A stretch of 63,819 bases of DNA, the filler included, from Pelomyxa schiedti (Eukaryota > Protista > Evosea), in assembly GCA_020536535.1 (NCBI GenBank). It is 15 parts of 15 records of this genome, joined end to end, with 100 filler letters (N's around TTAATTAATTAA, not from the genome) between each part and the next. Parts side by side here need not be neighbours in the genome. Positions count along the whole stretch, not along the records: positions 48,705 to 53,929 come from JAHLWZ010001513.1; 14 more parts are not named here. One strand, given 5' to 3'. Below the pieces are notes generated by a model. That model was not told the DNA's origin, made no database searches, and worked only from the letters and a program-made list of their open reading frames with translations. Shown here piece after piece: positions 40,057 through 57,702 of the stretch. Numbering within the stretch: position 1 is the first letter of the stretch; each line of letters begins with the position of its first letter. A program made the translations under genes and the position numbers.

Positions 40057-40184
40057 TTGTGGGACCCCCTTTTGTGTTGTGTAGTCAACGGGGCGGTGTA
40101 AGAGACTGAGAAATTGAATCAGGAATTTTCACTCAATTCGTTTTAGGAGAAAGGCGCAACGTTGTGTTAAAAAAATAACAAGGC

Positions 40185-42834
<2,650 letters not shown>

Positions 42835-42914: not shown

Positions 42915-44163
42915 TCAGTTGGTTTTGTTGTGTAGTTCTGGAATGTCTTTTATGTCCTTTGTGAGAATGTAGCAGTGTGGTGGTTCGATCCTGTTGGGCA
43001 TAGGTAAATAGAGTATGAATAATCTAATAATTCCATAGAATATGAATAATTATTGCAGGTAAGGTAGGAGCGACCGGTTTTAGGGTTTGAAAGTAGGAAA
43101 GGGAATTATTATTAAACAGATGGAAGGGGCCAAACTTTTTGTAATAGTTCTCCAGCATTGGCCCTCGTTTAAAGCCGAGTCTCTCGTAGAAGGCGATTGC
43201 GCGAACGTTGCTAGATTGAACGTGCAAATAAAGCTGTGCAACACCGTCCACACAGCTAGTGAGCATGTATTGCAACAATTTTGTTCCTTAAGGGGTGCAT
43301 GTGAGTGAAAGGCCTTATCACAAAGTTACAGACCTATTTTTAAACGGGAATAGGCTTCTAGCACTCCAAGCGTCATAATGTACAACTTGGAATATGTTGT
43401 GCCGGGAATAGGTTCCAGCCGGCAGCATATTGATCCGGCTATTACATCCTCTCCATAGTACGCTGGTATTTTTCTCAATTAGAAGACGAATGGAGTTGGA
43501 GTGATAACAGGATAAAGTATATAGTATTCCTTCCAAAACACAAAAAAGTCTTTAAGAAGGAAAGGAAACAACCTAGCCTATTGAACTTTGAGGGATTTAG
43601 CAATAAATCAGAGTAGAACTTGTCGTTGTAGGTAACAGGCAACGTAGCCAAATTGATTACTCTAACTTGTTCAATGTTCTTGGGTGTAACCTAAAATAAN
43701 NNNNNNNNNNNNNNNNNNNNNNNNNNNNNNNNNNNNNNNNNNNNNNNNNNNNNNNNNNNNNNNNNNNNNNNNNNNNNNNNNNNNNNNNNNNNNNNNNNNT
43801 ATTGAACTTTGAGGGATTTAGCAATAAATCAGAGTAGAACTTGTCGTTGTAGGTAACAGGCAACGTAGCCAAATTGATTACTCTAACTTGTTCAATGTTC
43901 TTGGGTGTAACCTAAAATAAATAAAAAAATTAATGATAATGTTATTTCACGACCCACTATGGGCAAGCCAACCACAACCACAACCAACGTTGCACGAATA
44001 ATAGCACCACACCCACCTCAACCAAAGTTATGGGAAGTTCCAGTCTCTTTGGTGGAGCCGCAGGCGTCGGTGCCGACGCCGACGCCGACGCCGACACAGA
44101 CACTGCCGGTGGCGCCGAGGGCGTAGTAGTGCTAGCGGACGCGGGTGCGGCGTCAGACGACAT
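42915..44163 (-). CDS. NAA50: N-alpha-acetyltransferase 50 (NatE), multi-exon, spans a gap
   Basis: VTPKNIEQVRVINLATLPVTYNDKFY...GSICCRLE...KLYIMTLGVLEAYSRLKIG...LYLHVQSSN..AIAFYERLGF...NYYKKIEPPHCYIL. Confidence 0.93.
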
Positions 44164-44361
44164 GATGGGACGGACCGCGGCGAACAACAAAATCAAATTC
44201 TGTGCACTGGACAAGTTTTGATGATGCGCATTTATTACTAGTATTACTTGCTACTGTTCTTTACCATCGTCGCGGCCGGCTGTTGTTTGCTAGCGGAGGT
44301 AGTGGTGGCTGTTGTTGAGCAGAGTTTTTTTGGTGGAAGATGAGCTTTGTGGTGGTGTGTG

Positions 44362-45552
44362 TCACGAGACTCGCAGAACTTCGTAGTACCTCTCGGGATT
44401 TGAAATCTTGAAGATCAGGAAGCCAGACACAGAATCAAAGACTTCAATGTAATCTTGGTCGGATAAGCCAAGTAGTGGTGCCCTGACCACAATCTCCTGC
44501 CCAGCCTCAAGTACGCCACAGGCCTTGGGAGTCTTGGCACTGTGAGTGTAGCACACCCTTGTTGGTTCCACAATACTGCGAACCTCCCTCATTGCAAAAC
44601 CACTTAGAAAACCGAATTTGTCCAGAAGAAAGTATGGGCCGCCAATGAAGCTCAACTGGAAGCACCCACTGAAGTTGAATGTCTCTCCAGTGGTGAGGCA
44701 CACAATGGAACCCTCGGTTATGTCAGTTATCATGTACATCATTCCATTCCAGCACATGGGATTCTGGAGGTTGTGGTAAGGACCAAACTCTCTCGTCACC
44801 ACAATCCTTTTCTGCTCCCAAGTGGCCTCCATTCCAATCACCTGGATTATCCCATCCCTTTTGCTGACTACCAGTGAATCAGCAGCATTCCGCGCAAACT
44901 TCATTCTTGCCACTTCACGTGGGAATGGGATTGCCTCGTCCACCTTTGGCACCACCCCTGCCTCGACCTGGTCGAAATTCCACAGTTCCATCTGGTACCC
45001 AACTTGCCTCACATAGCTCACAACGGCCAGCCACCTCCTGCTGTTGGCCACAAACCGGGCACCACAACCGCACAGTGCGTTGACACCACTCTGCCAGCCC
45101 CGTGCGATTTCAACAACGCACAGCGACTCACCCGCGCGATTCCCCTGCCCACGCAGGGCCATGAGAGCAAACCTCTGCTGGCCAGCGGAAAGTGGCCCGA
45201 CCCACCCCTGGAACTTCCCGTAGCACCCGCGCGCCACAACGGCCGGGCGGTCCACAAGCCCCAGGGTCGGCGACACGGAGAAAGCCACTGTGACGCATTT
45301 GGGCTTGAATCTGATCCCGAGGTCGAGGACCACGTGCAGCGAAGCGTGCACGACCCAGTCTCGGCCCAGTTGGGACACCTGGTAGGGCGTGAGGGCCCGC
45401 AGGGCGCTGCGGGCGCCGCAGCGTCCCACAACGGCGCCGGTGGCCAGGGCCACGAACTGGTCCCGCGCGTCAGTGCCGCAGTGGACGTCGAGTTCGCCTC
45501 CCTGCGACGGAGGAGACGAGGAACGCGTGGTTGTTCCGACGTTGGAACCCAT
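44362..45552 (-). CDS. Lineage-expanded intronless DQF-family protein C
   Basis: ARDQFVALATGAVVGRCGARSALRAL...RDWV...FSVSPTLGLV...ANSRRWLAV...EVFDSVSGFLIFKI. Confidence 0.78.
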   Translation of the reverse strand: MGSNVGTTTRSSSPPSQGGELDVHCGTDARDQFVALATGAVVGRCGARSALRALTPYQVSQLGRDWVVHASLHVVLDLGIRFKPKCVTVAFSVSPTLGLVDRPAVVARGCYGKFQGWVGPLSAGQQRFALMALRGQGNRAGESLCVVEIARGWQSGVNALCGCGARFVANSRRWLAVVSYVRQVGYQMELWNFDQVEAGVVPKVDEAIPFPREVARMKFARNAADSLVVSKRDGIIQVIGMEATWEQKRIVVTREFGPYHNLQNPMCWNGMMYMITDITEGSIVCLTTGETFNFSGCFQLSFIGGPYFLLDKFGFLSGFAMREVRSIVEPTRVCYTHSAKTPKACGVLEAGQEIVVRAPLLGLSDQDYIEVFDSVSGFLIFKISNPERYYEVLRVS

Positions 45553-45944
45553 CACGTAGATGTGATGCCCGAAACTGTTGTCTCCTCTGTCTAAGTCGGC
45601 AGGGCACCTAAGTCCTCAGTGTTGAAGGAACCCTTCTCTCCGCTCATCTAAGTCTTGCCGCCCCGCATCAAAATCAAAGAACCGAAACTCGTTCGATTGA
45701 TGCAGCCTACAAGCAGCACCACAACAACAACAACTCGCGGTCGTGGTACCGCCGCCGCCGCCACCAGCACTACTACCAGTACTACTAGTCGATTGATGAG
45801 CGAGGCCAACACGCGCACGTGGGTTGTGACGGGAGCCAGTGGGTNNNNNNNNNNNNNNNNNNNNNNNNNNNNNNNNNNNNNNNNNNNNNNNNNNNNNNNN
45901 NNNNNNNNNNNNNNNNNNNNNNNNNNNNNNNNNNNNNNNNNNNN

Positions 45945-46202
45945 GGCGACACGGAGAAAGCCACTGTGACGCATTTGGGCTTGAATCTGATCCCGAGGTC
46001 GAGGACCACGTGCAGCGAAGCGTGCACGACCCAGTCTCGGCCCAGTTGGGACACCTGGTAGGGCGCCGCAGCGTCCCACAACGGCGCCGGTGGCCAGAGC
46101 CACGAACTGGTCCCGCGCGTCAGTGCCGCAGTGGACGTCGAGTTCGCCTCTCTGCGACGGAGGAGACGAGGAACGAGTGGTTGTTCCGACGTTGGAACCC
46201 AT
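45945..46202 (-). pseudogene. Frameshifted second copy or allele of DQF protein C
   Basis: 45945-46490 repeats ~45266-45844 but lacks 26 nt between two GGGCG microhomologies, which shifts the frame. Confidence 0.75.
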
Positions 46203-46833
46203 CACGTAGATGTGATGCCCGAAACTGTTGTCTCCTCTAAGTCTAAGTCGGCAGGGCACCTAAGTCCTCAGTGTTGAAGGAACCCTTCTCTCCGCTCATC
46301 TAAGTCTTGTCGCCCCGCATCAAGATCAAAGAACCGAAACTCGTTCGATTGATGCAGCCTACAAGCAGCACAACAACAACTCGCGGTCGTGGTACCGCCG
46401 CCGCCGCCACCAGCACTACTACCAGTACTACTAGTCGATTGATGAGCGAGGCCAACACGCGCACGTGGGTTGTGACGGGAGCCAGTGGGTNNNNNNNNNN
46501 NNNNNNNNNNNNNNNNNNNNNNNNNNNNNNNNNNTTAATTAATTAANNNNNNNNNNNNNNNNNNNNNNNNNNNNNNNNNNNNNNNNNNNNCGAGTGCACC
46601 AAGTTGGCCGCGCGTGGTGATGGTTGCTCTGATGTCGGCGCTGTGCGTTCCGTCACTGAGGGTCCACGTTGCCATCAGGGTTATTCAAGTGACTTGGTGG
46701 TGCTTGTTTAAAAAGAAAACAAGTTGTAACTTGTTGGGACTTGACAACGAAATTTCAAACGGTACTTGCCAAGTACATACTTGAAAGAACAACCGTTGCC
46801 ATCTCATTTTCTCGGAAAGTGATCAAAAAAAGC

Positions 46834-48704: not shown

Positions 48705-50637
48705 CAGAGTGACCTTGTGCTAGTGATGCACGTTCCAAGGCATCTCACAATATTTGGGTGCCTCAAACTCGACGAAATCTAGTGTGGGGGTTGTTGTTAG
48801 CAAGTTGTTGTCAACCCAGGAGCATCAGTGACACAGCTCTCTCGCACACACCAGAGCTTCCTGCTGAAACCTGGTGATGTTGAACTCGGATTTTATGCTT
48901 TCGTGAAGTGATTTCACTGCCACCAATGTTGTTGTCGTTGCTTCTGACGTTGATGAGGAGGAAGATGTTGTGAAGGAAGGTGCACTTGAAAACAGTTCCA
49001 TACGATCCAACTCCAAGTGTGGAAACAACTTTCAAGTCTTTCTCTTGTATTGTCATGGTTGATTTGATTCTAACTTGTATAGACACAACTCTGTTTGTAC
49101 TGCTGCCTTGTTGAATTTCTTCCAAGGTTCTAGATGGATCAAACAACAGTTCCTCTGAGTGGTTATCAGAACCAACAATGAAAATGATTTGTTCAGTCGG
49201 TTCAACTACAAACTTCCTTGAGATGAGGATTTTCACAACCTGTAGATTGATACCAATGAGAAACGTTACAATAAACGACGAGAAATGGGGATTCAAGAGA
49301 GGAATGAAAATACCATTTGAAGTGGGCAGAATCCACACACAGTTTCATCAAAAGAGGCAAGGTCCTCAAACACAATCCTGATTTGCGAGTGTTTGCAGTT
49401 GTTGTTGTTGTCAGGGAGAATGTTGCACCATGTGCCTTCTCCTTGTTCAACATGTGACATCACATGAGTCATGCCTGCAGTGGCAGTTAGTGTATGCAAG
49501 GTTGGTTGAGAAAGGGGGGTGTTGTGACGCACAAACAGTGTTGGAAATCATGACATCTTTGTTGATCAGATGCTCTTTTGTCACAAAAGATCTTCAGGTT
49601 CTTGGCACTTTCTTCCTCAAGTGTGGTGATCAGTTCCATCAGCTCTTGTTTTTTTTTTTTTTTTGGAAGGAAAAAGGTTAGTGGCGAAAAAGGAAAAGAA
49701 AGGAGGTTAAAACCCTTATTCTTTGCAGTCGAGTCCACAAATCTTTGGTTGAGCTGTCTCTCATCATGGAGAAGCTTAAGGTTCTTTGCATTTTCTTCCT
49801 CCAATTGTGTGATTCGGGCATTCAGTTCTGTGATTTCTTCGCAGTGTCAGGTGCACAAGGTTAAATTTGATATTTGAAAGGTTGGGTTACTCTGATGCCG
49901 TTTTCCAGTGATTTCGCGGTTTCTTCCTCGTTTCTTGGTGGTGTTTGGGGGGTTTTCTGCAGGTTTTGTTGCTATGGGTGATACATGTTGTTGTGGTGGT
50001 AAGGTGGCCTTTGAGGATTGTACAATTCCCGCGTTGTGATCCTCCAAAAGGTTGCAGATATCAGTGCAGTTCCTTCTTTTTGCCACATCAAGTGGAGTTT
50101 CACCTTTGGTGTTCATGCGGTTTGTGTCAATTCCATTGACTTGGAGAAGAACCTTCACCCCTTCCAGGAATCCCTCATCGCAAGCCACGTGCAGTGCCGT
50201 TCGACCGAGACACTGGTCCCCCGTCGGTGGCACCAAGTTGACGTCCACGCCCGGACACCCAAGCAGCGCCACCACCACGCCAATGTCGCTCCTCGTGCAT
50301 GCGATGAGAAGTGGGCACCCCTTGTTGACATCCACATCGGACCTTGCCACCAGCATCCTCACCCCACTGCCTCCTTGCCCTGGGCAGCAGCGTGGCACAG
50401 TGGCGTTCGACCAGAACCGTCGGCAGTGTTTGGGTCGATTGGGGGGTCACGCGATGCACCCACATCGAGTAGCTGCCTCGCGAGCGACGCATGCCCGTAT
50501 TTGCACGCAACATGAAGCATTGTCTCGCCAAAACCACTGATGGGGGTGTTAATGTCCCAAGTGGTTAAAGGCAACTGGGGCATAGCACCGCGTATGCACG
50601 CAACCCACATGGCCTCGTACTGATCCTGCATCGCCAT
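48705..50637 (-). pseudogene. Ankyrin-repeat, coiled-coil, tyrosine-kinase-like kinase pseudogene
   Basis: Ankyrin repeats GETMLHVAC/GRTPLCHAA/GRTALHVAC/GETPLDVA; kinase LGVGSYGTVFKC...VAVKSL...LRHPNIVRCLG. Frameshifts near 50360 (extra GG) and 48980, plus internal stops. Confidence 0.78.
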
Positions 50638-51217
50638 CACTTATTGTTTCAAGTTCCTGTACGGAATCATCCAAGTTGGAGAATATCAAATTTCCGATAA
50701 GAGCTGTTTTTGGCTCTAATTCACAAAGTTACGAGGGTTACGAACCTGAAGGGAGGAGGTAGTATTCACTGGTGCCTCACATGACGGAATAAAATAATCA
50801 ACAGACCGGAACGCAGTAGATTTCGTTACTAGAAACGTCCGACAGCACCACTCACTGGGTTTTATCACCAACGTGTAGGGGGGGAGGCTGTCGAATTTTT
50901 TCTAAGCTAAAACCTCGCGGTCTGGTATTGAAAAAATTGAATTAACCTTGGGAATTCTCAAGGGTACAATTTCCATACTGACGAGGGATGATACCTCCGT
51001 TTTCCGACTCCTTTTGTTGGGCACACTCGGTTGCGGTCCGGAACAATGTGAGCTCGCTCAAGAAAGTAGATATTCTCCAGAATCCCTCTACAGCTCTTGA
51101 GGGATATAACACTACGAACGAAGATCGAGCACCACAGTTGTGGCACTGCCGTCTCTGATTAGATCATGATGAGTTTGGTAGAATCGAAGCAAGTTGGGTT
51201 TGAAAAAAACTCTGAGA

Positions 51218-52614
51218 ATGTCATCAACAACAGCGGCAGCGGGCGGAACACAAGACCAGCCACAACAACATAATCAAAGTCTGCAAGGAACGAGATGGAG
51301 AAACAAAGAGGATCCGAACAAAAGTGGTGTTGTCTGTTTGCAGTTCTGGGACACGACTGCTCAGTTTCGATTTTGTGCTTCCACTCTGGGGTGTGCAAGT
51401 GAAAAACGTGCATCTAAAAAAGACTCTGTTGTTGCGTGCAACTTCTCGGTGTGTTGTTTATTTTCATTTTCACTTATCCATTGTTTCTTTTTGTTTATGA
51501 AACCCCTGGCACTTCCCATCTTGTTTGTATTACAAATTTCTATAAAATATCTTATTTGCTGTCAGGTTGATGACAGCGTTTCACCAAGGAGAATTCATTT
51601 CAACTCGGTATTTTTTCATGGAATAGGAATATTCCAGTTTGAGGGTGACAAAATTTTGAGACTCCACATGCGCGATTTGAGTCACCCTGAAGAGGACTGT
51701 CCTGATGACTTTCAAGTGCACCCTGACAAGCACCACTTGCTTTTGGAATTGAATCCCGAGGCGAGCTATCACGCATTTCTTATTACCATTTGTTAATTGA
51801 GGCAGATGTCGCTGGATGGTACCTGGGATAGCACTGACGGTCGACCCGCGAGCCTTATATTTGCAGGGAATACACTTACAGTGAAGCCAGGGGGCCCGGG
51901 CCCTGTTGAAGCATCTGCTCCACTGGAGTTCATGGTTTGTTGTTCTGTTTTCAGTTCGCTTCGAGTATTGCTTGGCCGTTGACATTTCACACGCACATAC
52001 AGGTTGACAGCACCACCGTGCCAATGCAAATTACGCTTGTCACACCTGAGGGAGAAGCTCCTGGAATCTTCGAGCTCTTGGATTCAGACACCCTCAGAAT
52101 GTGTCTTGCCCGTCCTGGGGAAGAGGCTCCAACACAGTTCCTTGAGGGCAACGGTGTCAACTTATTAACAGCTCACAAAAGACAGAATGACGTAGACCAA
52201 ACCTAAACTCACTGATTACCAATAACCGAGAATCCACAGCGTGAATTACTTGGTGAATGGTATGACGCTGAAGACAAAGTCACAATGACCTTTGACCCCA
52301 CAAGTATCACAATAGTATTACCTGGGGGTCCCCCCGAGTCCTTTGACTATAAGGTAGAAACAAACAAAAAAAGAAAAACCAACTGGGCAAAAAAACTAAT
52401 GCCAAACCACAAAAAGACTGATGAAACAACCACTCCCAAACGCTTCACCTTTGCCCTGACTCATATTTGCATTTATGAGATTCTGGAGAACAACTCCCTG
52501 AGGATCTGCTCACCTTGTTTTGATAATCCAGATGCACCCACTGTTTTCAGTACTGTGGCTCACAAGACCATTCTGCGTACTCTGATAAGACATCCCAAAG
52601 TCTCTCTGGGATGA
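51218..52614 (+). CDS. Protein of three tandem TIGR03067-like (Planctomycetes, lipocalin-like) domains, 5 introns
   Basis: Three repeats: LQGTRW..VDDSVSPRRI..GIFQFEGDKILRL..PDDF; LDGTW..VDSTTVPMQI..GIFELLDSDTLRMCLARPGEEAPTQF; LLGEW..TDETTTPKRF..CIYEILENNSLRIC..APTVF. Introns at 51449-51565, 51761-51805, 51935-52002, 52192-52239, 52354-52416. Confidence 0.75.
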
Positions 52615-52679: not shown

Positions 52680-53929
52680 TTAGTGGTAATATTTTTTGAA
52701 TTTGAACAGCTTCAATGGCAGGGTGATCACCCCAAGGCGAAATCCAGTTACTCCGTCATGCAGTGAGAACTCAATTATTTCCGTGGTGTCACTTTCATGG
52801 TGCCGATTTCTTGGTTGATAGGTTGAAAGGGTGACACTGTAGATCATCTCCTGGAGCGCGTCCTTTTCACTGCTGAAGTATGATGTTGAGAGAATGAGGC
52901 CTGAGAGCCTGTGGGGGCATGACCATGTGCATGGAAGGCAAAGTGATGGTTGTGAGAGGTTCCCATTGTGGAAAACCTGGAACTCAGTGGGCTCTGAAGA
53001 ATAGGAATCCGTGGTCCTGACGAACACATGGCTTTTGTTCAGTGTGGTCACCAACTTGCCATCAGGAAACTCCCACGTCGTTTCTGACGACAATGCGTCC
53101 ACAAGTGTGCGACGAGTCACATTCACTGCAGCTTCTTGAAGGACCAGCTCACTCATCAAAATACAAGGGGAACCATCAGGGAGCCACGTCACACTCCGAA
53201 GTATCAGTGTGGAGGCACCAAGAGGTGGATTGCATTCAATCTTTGATTTGACAACAAGCTCCTTGTTGTTGAAGGTGGCTTCCAAGTCAACAAGTGTAAC
53301 AACATCCCTCTGCGTGTGCTCACTGCATCCTCCACCTATTTTGCCATGCAAAATCAGAGTGTCATCGCTGAGAGGCGCTAATTCAACCAGGCTCATTCTG
53401 ATGTCTCTGGTCTTCACAACCACATCATCTCCAACAGGCGCGCCACCCTCCACCTTGTGGATGAACAACGATGGAACTTCCTCTTTAGTATCTCCACACC
53501 CCACAATCCACTTCCTGTTGCACACTATGCTCTTGATTTGTGCCCAGGCTGTCAGGGAGGGCTCAGGCAATTCACACTGATTACAGGCTGTTGTATCCTT
53601 GATGATTTGTTCCACAGTGAAATTTTTGAATGATGTCAGCAGAACCTTGTTGTCCCCAATGCACCCACATAACTTTTGAGAAAGAACATGACTGAAACAA
53701 GAAGTATTCAGCACACCCAGGGTCAGTGACACACTAACAAGCAGGATACAATGTTGGTTCTGACCCTCCCAGGTTGTTCCCTCCACTGGAAGGGTAAAAA
53801 CCGCATCCCACAATGAGTACAGGACCCACTCTTCGGCCCACTGCCTGAACAGCACTGTCGATCGTGCCCACTGCGTCATTGAAAATGGGGGTTTGGTTTT
53901 TGTTGCGCCGATTGAAGGTTCTCCAGAGG
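52680..53929 (-). CDS. Lineage-expanded intronless DQF-family protein F, 5'-truncated
   Basis: WARSTVLFRQWAEEWVL...VSVSLTLGV...CNRKWIV...VTLVDLEATF...LHDGVTGFRLGVI. Confidence 0.75.
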
Positions 53930-55686: not shown

Positions 55687-57702
55687 TCAAAGTAAAAGTT
55701 GTTGCTTTTGGTGGATGGGGCTGCGGCACTGAGGGCACTTCCTTATGACTGAGGCACACTGTTGTACTTCATTAGAGTTTGGGAGGCATTAAGAGTGGCC
55801 TGAATACCTGAGAGCACAGAACAATGTGGCCGCAAGGTAGGAATTGAACATTGGGTTGCCTCTCATCGCACTCAATGCACAAGTTGTTGTTGCTAACGCT
55901 AACATTCAGTGGTGACTGCTGTTTGGGCATTGTTGTTGAGAAACAGGGAGAAGCTGTGCTCCCAGGAAGTGTTGTGACGACTGAAGAGGACGAAGTGGAG
56001 ACCTTGAATGCCATCAGAGCCATGACGGCCTGCTGGGCCNNNNNNNNNNNNNNNNNNNNNNNNNNNNNNNNNNNNNNNNNNNNNNNNNNNNNNNNNNNNN
56101 NNNNNNNNNNNNNNNNNNNNNNNNNNNNNNNNNNNNNNNCTGTTTGGGCATTGTTGTTGAGAAACAGGGAGAAGCTGTGCTCCCAGGAAGTGTTGTGACG
56201 ACTGAAGAGGACGAAGTGGAGACCTTGAATGCCATCAGAGCCATGACGGCCTGCTGGGCCTCAGGGAGCAAAGAACAGAGCTGAGACCGCACTCCAGGCA
56301 AGGCCATGAACTTCTCATCACCCTCCAGCCCACGCCTCAACATCCACTTGGATTGGTGCTCTGCAATCAGCCCTGAACACACTTCCTGCATTTCCTCAAT
56401 TTCCTTGTTGAGGTTGTGACTGAGAGTAACTTGCTCAGAGAGCTCCTTGGACAGCATGGTGTATGTGTCTGCAAGCTTTGTGCACCCATCAAACCGGCAC
56501 CCTTGAAGCTGTGTGAGTGTCTCTGAGAGTGAGGCCAATGACTGAAACAGTGGTTCCCCAGCAGAAGCCATACTGACGTTTTCCAGAATCTGTTTCGGTA
56601 AAACTTGGCTGCCCAGTTTCCTCAATGTTACATTGAAGTCCTGTTCTTTTATGTGTTAGGTGTGTGAACCCCAGGTTTTCTTTGTCTAACCTTGGAGTGG
56701 CACAGGGTTGTTTTCCAATGAATCCACAGTCTTGTCTCCCAAAAGTTTCTTGGTCAACTCAGAGATGTTATTTGAGCACTGCTGAATCTCTGCCTCACTG
56801 TTTTGAACTGTAAATTTCTGTCCCAGTACCTGTTTGCAGGCATCCTCAGATTCCACAAGTTGCCTTCCCAGTGTCTCTTGCATGGAAACAAGATCTCTGA
56901 GGTGTGATGCCTGTTCCTCATTGTGTTTCGTGGCTGCCTGAAGGCTCTTGTTCAATTTAACTGCCGACTCCTTGAGCAAGATGATCTCTGGCACGGCTCT
57001 CTTCAGTTGAGAGCACAATTGCGTGGCCAGTTTGAAAGCATTCGTCACTTCTGGCAGGGTTCCAACTCCAGGTGTAAACTTCACAGATTGATCTCGTTCC
57101 TTTAAACTTGGTTTAGGACTGGGATGAAGCATAGGGGCACGCACACCTCCCACTCCTTCTTGGCTTCTGCTATTTTCTGTTTCCAGCTTTCTTCTAGCTC
57201 AATTTTTTCAGTAACATAGTTCCTTCTGAGTGTCTGTTCGAAATAAGAACAAAAAGAGAGAAGAGAAAGCAAAGTGGGGCACACTTCAGTCAGTTGGTTG
57301 AGCTGGTCAAGGTGTTTCAGCTTGTTCATTTCTGTTATTTCCTTGTTTTAAACCCCATCAGAACACACACAGTATTTAATGAGCTCACCACAACACAAAA
57401 CAACACTCACACACCTCCCACTCCTGCTTGGCTGCTGCCATCTCCTTTTTCAATCTTGAAATCTCCAAGTCATTTTTCTTTCATGATCTGAAAACCCCTG
57501 AAATCAGAAACAAGAATAAAGAAAAGTGAGTGGACAACAAGGATACCTCAATCTGATGCTGTTCTGGAAAAGATGACCCCATTTGATGTTGGAAAATTCC
57601 AGAACCTGTTCTTCCATTGAATACATTGTTGTTGAGAACACCCCTCAATGGAACATTCCCAGTTGTGGAGAGTGTCATAATACCCTCCCCAACGACCTGC
57701 AA
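55687..57702 (-). CDS. Coiled-coil protein with C-terminal C3HC4 RING finger (putative E3 ligase); 5'-truncated and spanning a gap
   Basis: LCIECDERQPNVQFLPCGHIVLCSQ|CASVIRKCPQCRSPI. Long heptad regions and GT-AG introns. Confidence 0.8.

What the first reader, a model, noticed from the sequence alone, without database searches (positions are those of the whole stretch)
51218..52614. Triple TIGR03067-like domain gene with the same intron position in every repeat: bacterial domain domesticated, then triplicated
Seen: three divergent ~100-aa repeats with L-x-G-x-W, [VT]D-x-[ST]-x-x-P-x-x-[IF], [GC]I[FY]-x-x-x-x-x-x-LR and P-x-x-F motifs. A phase-0 intron falls immediately before the [VT]D motif in all three (51449-51565, 51935-52002, 52354-52416), and phase-0 introns also separate the repeats (51761-51805, 52192-52239). 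Known: TIGR03067 is an uncharacterised domain found mainly in Planctomycetes. Inference: lateral transfer of one domain, intron gain, then exon-module duplication in the eukaryote. The spliceosomal introns exclude bacterial contamination.
Basis: partly seen in the sequence, partly recalled or inferred. Interest (0 to 1): 0.72.

Follow-up and report, generated by a model that had tools for sequence, protein, structure and literature searches.

The report
Bacterial barrel domain, spliced then triplicated
An anaerobic amoeba expresses a spliced gene made of three copies of an uncharacterised bacterial-type domain whose introns sit at matching positions in each copy, which likely records a bacterial gene that was taken up, gained an intron and was then copied as a cassette.

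Summary
All 5 introns are spliced at the stated sites in RNA contigs; intron 2 is GC-AG. The 351-aa product equals database protein P0001 (source name Pelo_17854, Pelomyxa schiedti) and scores 54.6 bits against TIGR03067 (cutoff 40.15). AlphaFold gives three 8-stranded lipocalin-like barrels. The three mid-repeat introns fall in one alignment column and both between-repeat introns in another (simulated chance of the triple alone 3e-5). Three paralogs with 2, 3 and 4 repeats exist in the same species; paralog DNA seen shares intron sites. No other eukaryotic relative was recognised among the best 150 of 192 hits. Two caveats: tandem TIGR03067 arrays are normal in bacteria (105 of 150 held relatives have 2 or more domains), so repetition alone proves nothing; and trees join repeats 2 and 3 (76-92% bootstrap) but leave fast-evolving repeat 1 unplaced (one clade neither shown nor rejected, p-AU 0.42-0.43). 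Donor unresolved. Function is inferred from fold only: a likely cytosolic binder of small hydrophobic ligands. A clean small case of transfer, intron gain and cassette duplication, not a new system.

The parts
51218..52614 (+). Whole gene, 6 exons, 351 aa, three TIGR03067-type barrel repeats (= P0001)
51218..51448 (+). Exon 1: short leader without signal peptide, plus first half of repeat 1 (strands 1-4)
   Evidence: RNA cover from 51273
51449..51565 (+). Intron B1, GT-AG, 117 nt, phase 0, before the VD motif; same site spliced in a paralog
51566..51760 (+). Exon 2: second half of repeat 1, His/acid-rich, the part best conserved among paralogs
51761..51805 (+). Intron A1, GC-AG, 45 nt, phase 0, between repeats 1 and 2
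51806..51934 (+). Exon 3: first half of repeat 2
51935..52002 (+). Intron B2, GT-AG, 68 nt, phase 0, before VD; also present in paralogs P0002 and P0003
52003..52191 (+). Exon 4: second half of repeat 2; alone matches TIGR03067 (E 5.8e-06, below cutoff)
52192..52239 (+). Intron A2, GT-AG, 48 nt, phase 0, same alignment column as A1
52240..52353 (+). Exon 5: first half of repeat 3
52354..52416 (+). Intron B3, GT-AG, 63 nt, A-rich, phase 0, before TD
52417..52614 (+). Exon 6: second half of repeat 3 and stop codon

Best explanation
This is an expressed, spliced amoeba gene of three TIGR03067-type repeats, predicted to fold as lipocalin-like barrels, that likely arose from one bacterial domain which gained an intron and was then duplicated in tandem. 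Inferred order: (1) transfer of a single barrel domain from a bacterium and loss of its export signal; (2) gain of a phase-0 intron (B) within strand 4; (3) tandem duplication with fusion by splicing across the spacer, creating intron A and giving repeat 1 plus the ancestor of repeats 2 and 3; (4) copying of the two-exon cassette [A, exon, B, exon], giving repeats 2 and 3 with A and B at identical sites; (5) whole-gene duplications to four paralogs, one with a further repeat-2-like copy and one annotated with only two repeats. The likeliest function, inferred from fold alone (about 0.4), is a soluble cytosolic protein that binds small hydrophobic molecules in its barrels, with repeat 1 specialised.
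For: Shown: splicing of all 5 introns. TIGR03067 above cutoff for P0001, P0003 and P0004; P0002 just under at 37.5 bits. All 12 repeats of the four paralogs score against an HMM built only from non-amoeba domains, 16-67 bits. B introns all at column 98 and A introns both at column 10; simulated triple coincidence 3.4e-5, about 2e-3 even with a 10-fold site bias. Paralog DNA/RNA: P0002 shares introns 1-4, P0003 shares B2. Repeat types each group across paralogs. R2+R3 group in 917, 764 and 885 of 1000 bootstrap trees, and an R3 profile ranks four R2 repeats above all bacterial domains scored; this fits the step order and the lack of an A intron before R1. Eight strands per repeat, mean pLDDT 84; best structural matches are lipocalin-like barrels, Z 10.0, rmsd 2.7 over 96 residues. 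No hydrophobic leader or membrane helix in the four paralogs, versus 112 of 145 relatives with one by a crude hydropathy rule; 23 of the other 33 begin inside a domain. Ankyrin, DEAD-box and GNAT neighbours.
Against: All 12 repeats formed one clade in only 0, 24 and 0 of 1000 bootstrap trees, and the 100-row tree separated all three types. R1 is a long branch with unusual composition, and R2/R3 profiles rank it near the bottom. Tandem arrays are common in the bacterial family (105 of 150 held relatives, including 5 near-duplicates, have 2 or more domains), and a 3-domain protein, P0016, aligns colinearly with R1-R2 (hhalign 97%). Taxonomy was seen for few relatives: of 30 clusters looked up, 2 were named Gemmataceae, 1 Pelomyxa, the rest gave no taxon. 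Coverage of other Archamoebae in the libraries is unknown, and 42 of 192 hits were not listed. No ligand or localisation evidence exists.
Confidence: 0.75

Rival explanations
1. A two-domain bacterial gene (R1-like plus R2-like) was transferred; only R3 and the extra P0004 repeat arose by duplication in the eukaryote, and the matching intron in R1 came by independent gain or by a partial conversion between repeats.
For: Bacterial arrays are common; P0016 aligns colinearly with R1-R2 and shares an FFHxxGI-like stretch; R1 never groups firmly with R2/R3; R1 held with P0016 domain 2 is not rejected (p-AU 0.307).
Against: Needs an intron at the same nucleotide by chance, about 0.5-5% per site under the densities used. 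The R1 profile ranks P0016 domain 2 only 72nd of 288, and the tree does not join them. That constraint costs 8.8 log-likelihood units against 1.6 for one amoeba clade.
Confidence: 0.15
2. The family is older in eukaryotes (vertical or ancient transfer) and looks confined to one species only because protists are poorly sampled and the repeats diverge fast.
For: Repeat-to-bacteria identity is at most about 42%, so the event is not recent; library coverage of amoebozoans was not verified; equally diverged eukaryotic copies could fall below the threshold.
Against: The only strong eukaryote-named hits in a full HMMER scan of 1.84 billion representatives and two word-indexed profile searches were from the same species; the nearest Atlas clusters were all bacterial, though below 0.9 and leads only.
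Confidence: 0.08
3. Artefact: symbiont or contaminant DNA, or separate small genes joined by the model.
For: The host lives with prokaryotic endosymbionts (PMC10579272, passages read), and exon 3 starts with ATG just after an in-frame stop inside intron 2.
Against: One RNA contig splices across introns 1-4, including the GC-AG one; the gene lies in one DNA contig (record 17) next to an ankyrin gene; paralogs have the same introns.
Confidence: 0.02

Closest known systems
TIGR03067 (Planc_TIGR03067) domain proteins of bacteria, e.g. Gemmataceae multi-domain proteins P0005 and P0008
   Same: HMM score above cutoff; GxW, [FY]x[VIL]DxxxxPxxI, GI[FY], LR[IL]C and PxxF motifs; tandem arrays
   Different: Eukaryotic, spliced, no signal peptide or membrane helix, not fused to ECF sigma, kinase, protease or DUF1559 domains; R2 and R3 lack the ~10-residue insert after strand 1 that most bacterial copies have; R1 is far diverged and His/acid-rich
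Bacterial lipocalin-like 8-stranded barrels (PDB 4gzv, 4qrl, 5jk2 Tp0751, 8ehc potempin E; Pfam Lipocalin_4)
   Same: Predicted 8-stranded antiparallel barrel, Z 9-10 for repeat 2; repeats 1 and 3 match similar barrels at Z about 8; several relatives pass the Lipocalin_4 cutoff
   Different: 7-16% identity; P0001 hits no Pfam family and no PDB sequence; no long C-terminal helix in the model; these matches have varied functions, so the fold fixes none
Prokaryote-derived genes of Archamoebae (528 LGT candidates in Mastigamoeba balamuthi; PMC8136499, passages read)
   Same: Bacterial-type gene in an anaerobic amoeba, expanded as in-paralogs
   Different: Those are enriched in metabolic categories; this is a non-enzymatic-looking extracytoplasmic domain rebuilt as a repeat protein by cassette duplication

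Membership tests
TIGR03067 domain family | Whole-protein HMM score at or above the curated cutoff of 40.15 bits | tested here: met
   P0001 54.6 bits, E 1.1e-14; P0003 40.9; P0004 79.5; P0002 37.5, below
TIGR03067 domain family | Each of the three repeats is such a domain | tested here: inconclusive
   NCBIfam counts 2 stretches in P0001; against an HMM of 129 non-amoeba domains R1 scores 24, R2 65, R3 37 bits; all fold alike; R1 is the weak one
TIGR03067 domain family | Typical context: bacterial and exported or behind a membrane helix (descriptive, not part of the HMM definition) | tested here: not met
   Spliced eukaryotic gene; no hydrophobic segment in 4 of 4 paralogs
Lipocalin/calycin-like barrels | Eight-stranded antiparallel barrel with N-terminal GxW | tested here: met
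   Predicted model, 8 strands per repeat; structural matches up to Z 10.0; GxW exact in R2 and R3, GxxW in R1
Lipocalin/calycin-like barrels | Sequence match to a Pfam lipocalin family | tested here: not met
   0 Pfam families for P0001 and P0002 at E up to 10
Lipocalin/calycin-like barrels | Binds a hydrophobic ligand in the barrel | not testable with these tools
   No ligand assay; cavity not measured
Prokaryote-to-eukaryote transferred gene | Eukaryotic copies form one clade nested among prokaryotic sequences | tested here: inconclusive
   R2+R3 grouped in 76-92% of bootstrap trees; all 12 repeats in 0-2.4%; p-AU 0.418 and 0.431; trees unrooted
Prokaryote-to-eukaryote transferred gene | Integrated in the host genome (spliceosomal introns, host neighbours, expression) | tested here: met

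The most novel reading that the evidence does not exclude
The first eukaryotic TIGR03067 family: a Planctomycete-type periplasmic barrel captured by an endosymbiont-laden amoeba, turned into a copy-number-variable two-exon cassette (2-4 barrels), with repeat 1 evolved into a new His/acid-rich binding module used in the cytosol to handle bacterial lipids or other symbiont- or food-derived ligands.
Probability: 0.25. Interest if true: 0.65.

Novelty: new variant of a known kind. Interest (0 to 1): 0.42.

Why it matters
It is an unusually legible record of domestication order: all five introns reduce to two ancestral sites, so intron gain can be dated before domain multiplication even though the bacterial family makes its own arrays. 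It also offers soluble, signal-free versions of a domain family with no sequence match in the PDB and no mention in the searched literature, which are convenient for solving the fold and finding a ligand. The process itself (transfer, intron gain, duplication) is well known, and transfer is frequent in Archamoebae, which caps the interest.

Tried and rejected
No whole genome is held, so paralog loci could not be read directly; paralog introns were inferred from contigs laid on this gene, and none of P0004's introns could be seen. DNA scans for relatives found none confirmed: metagenomes 0 of 556 and 0 of 391 pattern matches; prokaryote genomes 0 of 67 and, with P0007, 0 of 17; these need exact short patterns and are weak. 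Foldseek on the whole three-domain model gave nothing at E 0.001 or better. PDB sequence search gave 0. Atlas scores 0.86-0.89 are leads only. The careful 100-row tree did not finish; the quick tree was used. Hits P0102 and P0118 were dropped as repetitive non-members. P0016 as donor of an R1-R2 pair was tested and is neither supported nor rejected. Contig depths were not used to rank expression. Papers: 0 hits for TIGR03067, 0 for IPR017504/CHP03067/Planc_TIGR03067/TIGR03066, 0 for two context searches; two searches listed nothing on this family (listings only). The four locus tags were absent from the 2 supplementary files held for PMC8887013; supplements not held, and those of PMC8136499 (not opened), may list them. 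Earlier scan findings: none in 3 look-ups.

Full report
Gene model. Splicing the five proposed introns out of window 51218-52614 gives an open frame of 351 codons; all exons are multiples of three, four introns are GT-AG and intron 2 is GC-AG. In RNA run X1 one 801-nt contig covers 51273-52318, skipping 117, 45, 68 and 48 bases with no mismatch, and a 229-nt contig skips the 63-base fifth intron. The four runs come from at most two samples of one study and the DNA runs may be the window's own source, so they confirm junctions but are not independent sampling. The translation is identical to P0001, named by its source as hypothetical protein Pelo_17854 of Pelomyxa schiedti. That species has 7.43 introns per gene, 1.59% of them GC-AG (PMC8887013, passages read), so a GC donor is ordinary. 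Nearby ORFs carry ankyrin, DEAD-box helicase and GNAT domains (5 of 9 ORFs scanned had a Pfam hit).

Family. Single exons mostly fail to hit anything; only exon 4 matches TIGR03067 (1 of 8 pieces). The full protein scores 54.6 bits against a cutoff of 40.15 and has no Pfam match. Three paralogs from the same species were found: P0002 (342 aa, 3 repeats), P0003 (242 aa, 2 repeats) and P0004 (518 aa, 4 repeats). A full HMMER scan of 1.84 billion representatives with a three-sequence profile gave 192 hits at E 0.001, of which 150 were listed: 3 paralogs, 2 repetitive non-members and 145 proteins with TIGR03067-like domains. I take those 145 as bacterial from their signal peptides, their fusions (ECF sigma, PknB-type kinase, HtrA-like protease, DUF1559) and their sources; a taxon was seen for only 2 of 29 non-amoeba clusters looked up, both Gemmataceae. 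Bacterial proteins often carry arrays of up to 8 domains: 105 of 150 held relatives, including 5 near-duplicate members, have two or more. The repetition by itself therefore says nothing about where the duplication happened.

Intron positions. In a 100-row domain alignment the three mid-repeat introns all precede column 98, just before the nearly invariant Asp, and both between-repeat introns precede column 10. Dropping five introns at random on three 105-codon repeats gave a triple coincidence in 3.4e-5 of 2 million trials; with a ten-fold site preference the estimate is about 2e-3, before counting the second shared site. Laying contigs at 80% likeness showed paralog sequence: DNA matching P0002 runs through introns 1-4, its RNA is spliced at introns 1, 2 and 4, and P0003 has an intron acceptor before the VD of repeat 2 in DNA while its RNA is spliced there. 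I assigned these pieces to paralogs by translating the short loose ends by eye. No intron of P0004 was visible.

Trees. From 290 non-amoeba domains, 88 were kept after thinning at 45% identity. In the quick 100-row tree the R1, R2 and R3 types each group across paralogs (SH-aLRT 100, 90, 93), the extra P0004 repeat falls with R2, and the three types are not joined. On 30-32 hand-picked bacterial domains, including most of those that had fallen between the amoeba repeats, R2+R3 grouped in 917, 764 and 885 of 1000 bootstrap trees, but all 12 repeats in only 0, 24 and 0. One analysis grouped all 12 with a single bacterial domain at 75/93. AU tests did not reject one clade (p 0.418; p 0.431). R1 sits on a branch of 1.7-1.9 changes per site with odd composition, so its place is unresolved with about 110 columns. 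A three-domain protein, P0016, aligns colinearly with R1-R2, which keeps a two-domain donor possible, but profile ranks and the tree do not favour it. The trees are unrooted and give no donor.

Structure and likely function. AlphaFold with a 41-row alignment gives mean pLDDT 84.2, pTM 0.60 and eight strands per repeat. Intron B lies within strand 4, so single exons are half-barrels and the duplicated unit must be the two-exon cassette. The wide structural search ranks lipocalin-like barrels first (4gzv Z 10.0, rmsd 2.7, 96 residues; 5jk2 Z 9.8; 4qrl Z 9.2), mostly on repeat 2, with repeats 1 and 3 matching similar barrels at Z about 8, near the level common for unrelated models. The four paralogs lack any hydrophobic leader or membrane segment, while 112 of 145 relatives have one by a crude hydropathy rule, so a move from periplasm to cytosol is inferred. 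The second half of R1, although furthest from the bacterial consensus, is the best conserved among P0001, P0002 and P0004 (33 of 63 columns invariant, against 25 of 62 for R2 and 11 of 58 for R3), which suggests a new specialised role. Binding of small hydrophobic ligands is the commonest lipocalin function (own knowledge) and my best guess, about 0.4; a protein-binding role, as for the protease inhibitor and immunity protein among the structural matches, is the alternative.

History. The simplest account is one transferred domain, gain of intron B, tandem duplication with fusion by splicing (making intron A), then copying of the A-exon-B-exon cassette. It explains the shared B site, the shared A site, the absence of an A intron before R1, and the R2+R3 grouping. 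Splicing, family membership, intron homology and paralog structure are shown; transfer direction, step order and function are inferred.

Novelty. No paper in the searched library names the family, and no other eukaryotic member was recognised, with the limits that 42 hits were unlisted and amoebozoan coverage is unknown. Prokaryote-derived genes are abundant in the related Mastigamoeba (528 candidates; PMC8136499, passages read), and intron gain after transfer is reported elsewhere (PMC13591195, listing only). Verdict: real, correctly read, a new eukaryotic variant of a known bacterial domain family; interest 0.42.

Noticed in passing
paralog P0002, region matching window 52240-52313: The database protein lacks about 15 residues at the start of repeat 3, but an RNA piece spliced at intron 4 continues through that stretch (record 9), so the annotation probably removed a false intron.
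   Followed up: partly
window 48814-50640 (-): Ankyrin-repeat gene directly upstream and divergently oriented, followed by coiled-coil-like sequence and a GxGxxG kinase-like start; ankyrin confirmed by Pfam, the kinase piece gave no hit.
   Followed up: partly
window 50690-51035: The intergenic stretch upstream of the gene is a multi-copy element: many DNA contigs lay on it with different flanks and summed depth up to about 5000.
   Followed up: no
window 52680-53927 (-) and 44362-45615 (-): Two intronless ORFs of about 415 aa with no Pfam match; they look like members of lineage-specific expanded families.
   Followed up: partly
window 40179-42834 (+) and 43024-44250 (-): Intron-containing DEAD-box helicase (DDX41/Abstrakt-like by recalled motifs) and a GNAT acetyltransferase (NAA50-like by recall); domains confirmed by Pfam only.
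   Followed up: partly
window 45616-46546, 55772-56260: Duplicated stretches on both sides of N gaps, often with TTAATTAA filler, look like scaffolding artefacts.
   Followed up: no
proteins P0007 and P0086: Lipoprotein-like relatives with the same short barrel form as repeats 2 and 3; members of both clusters lie on contigs of the same length (16367), so they may be neighbours. No genome with a taxon was found.
   Followed up: partly
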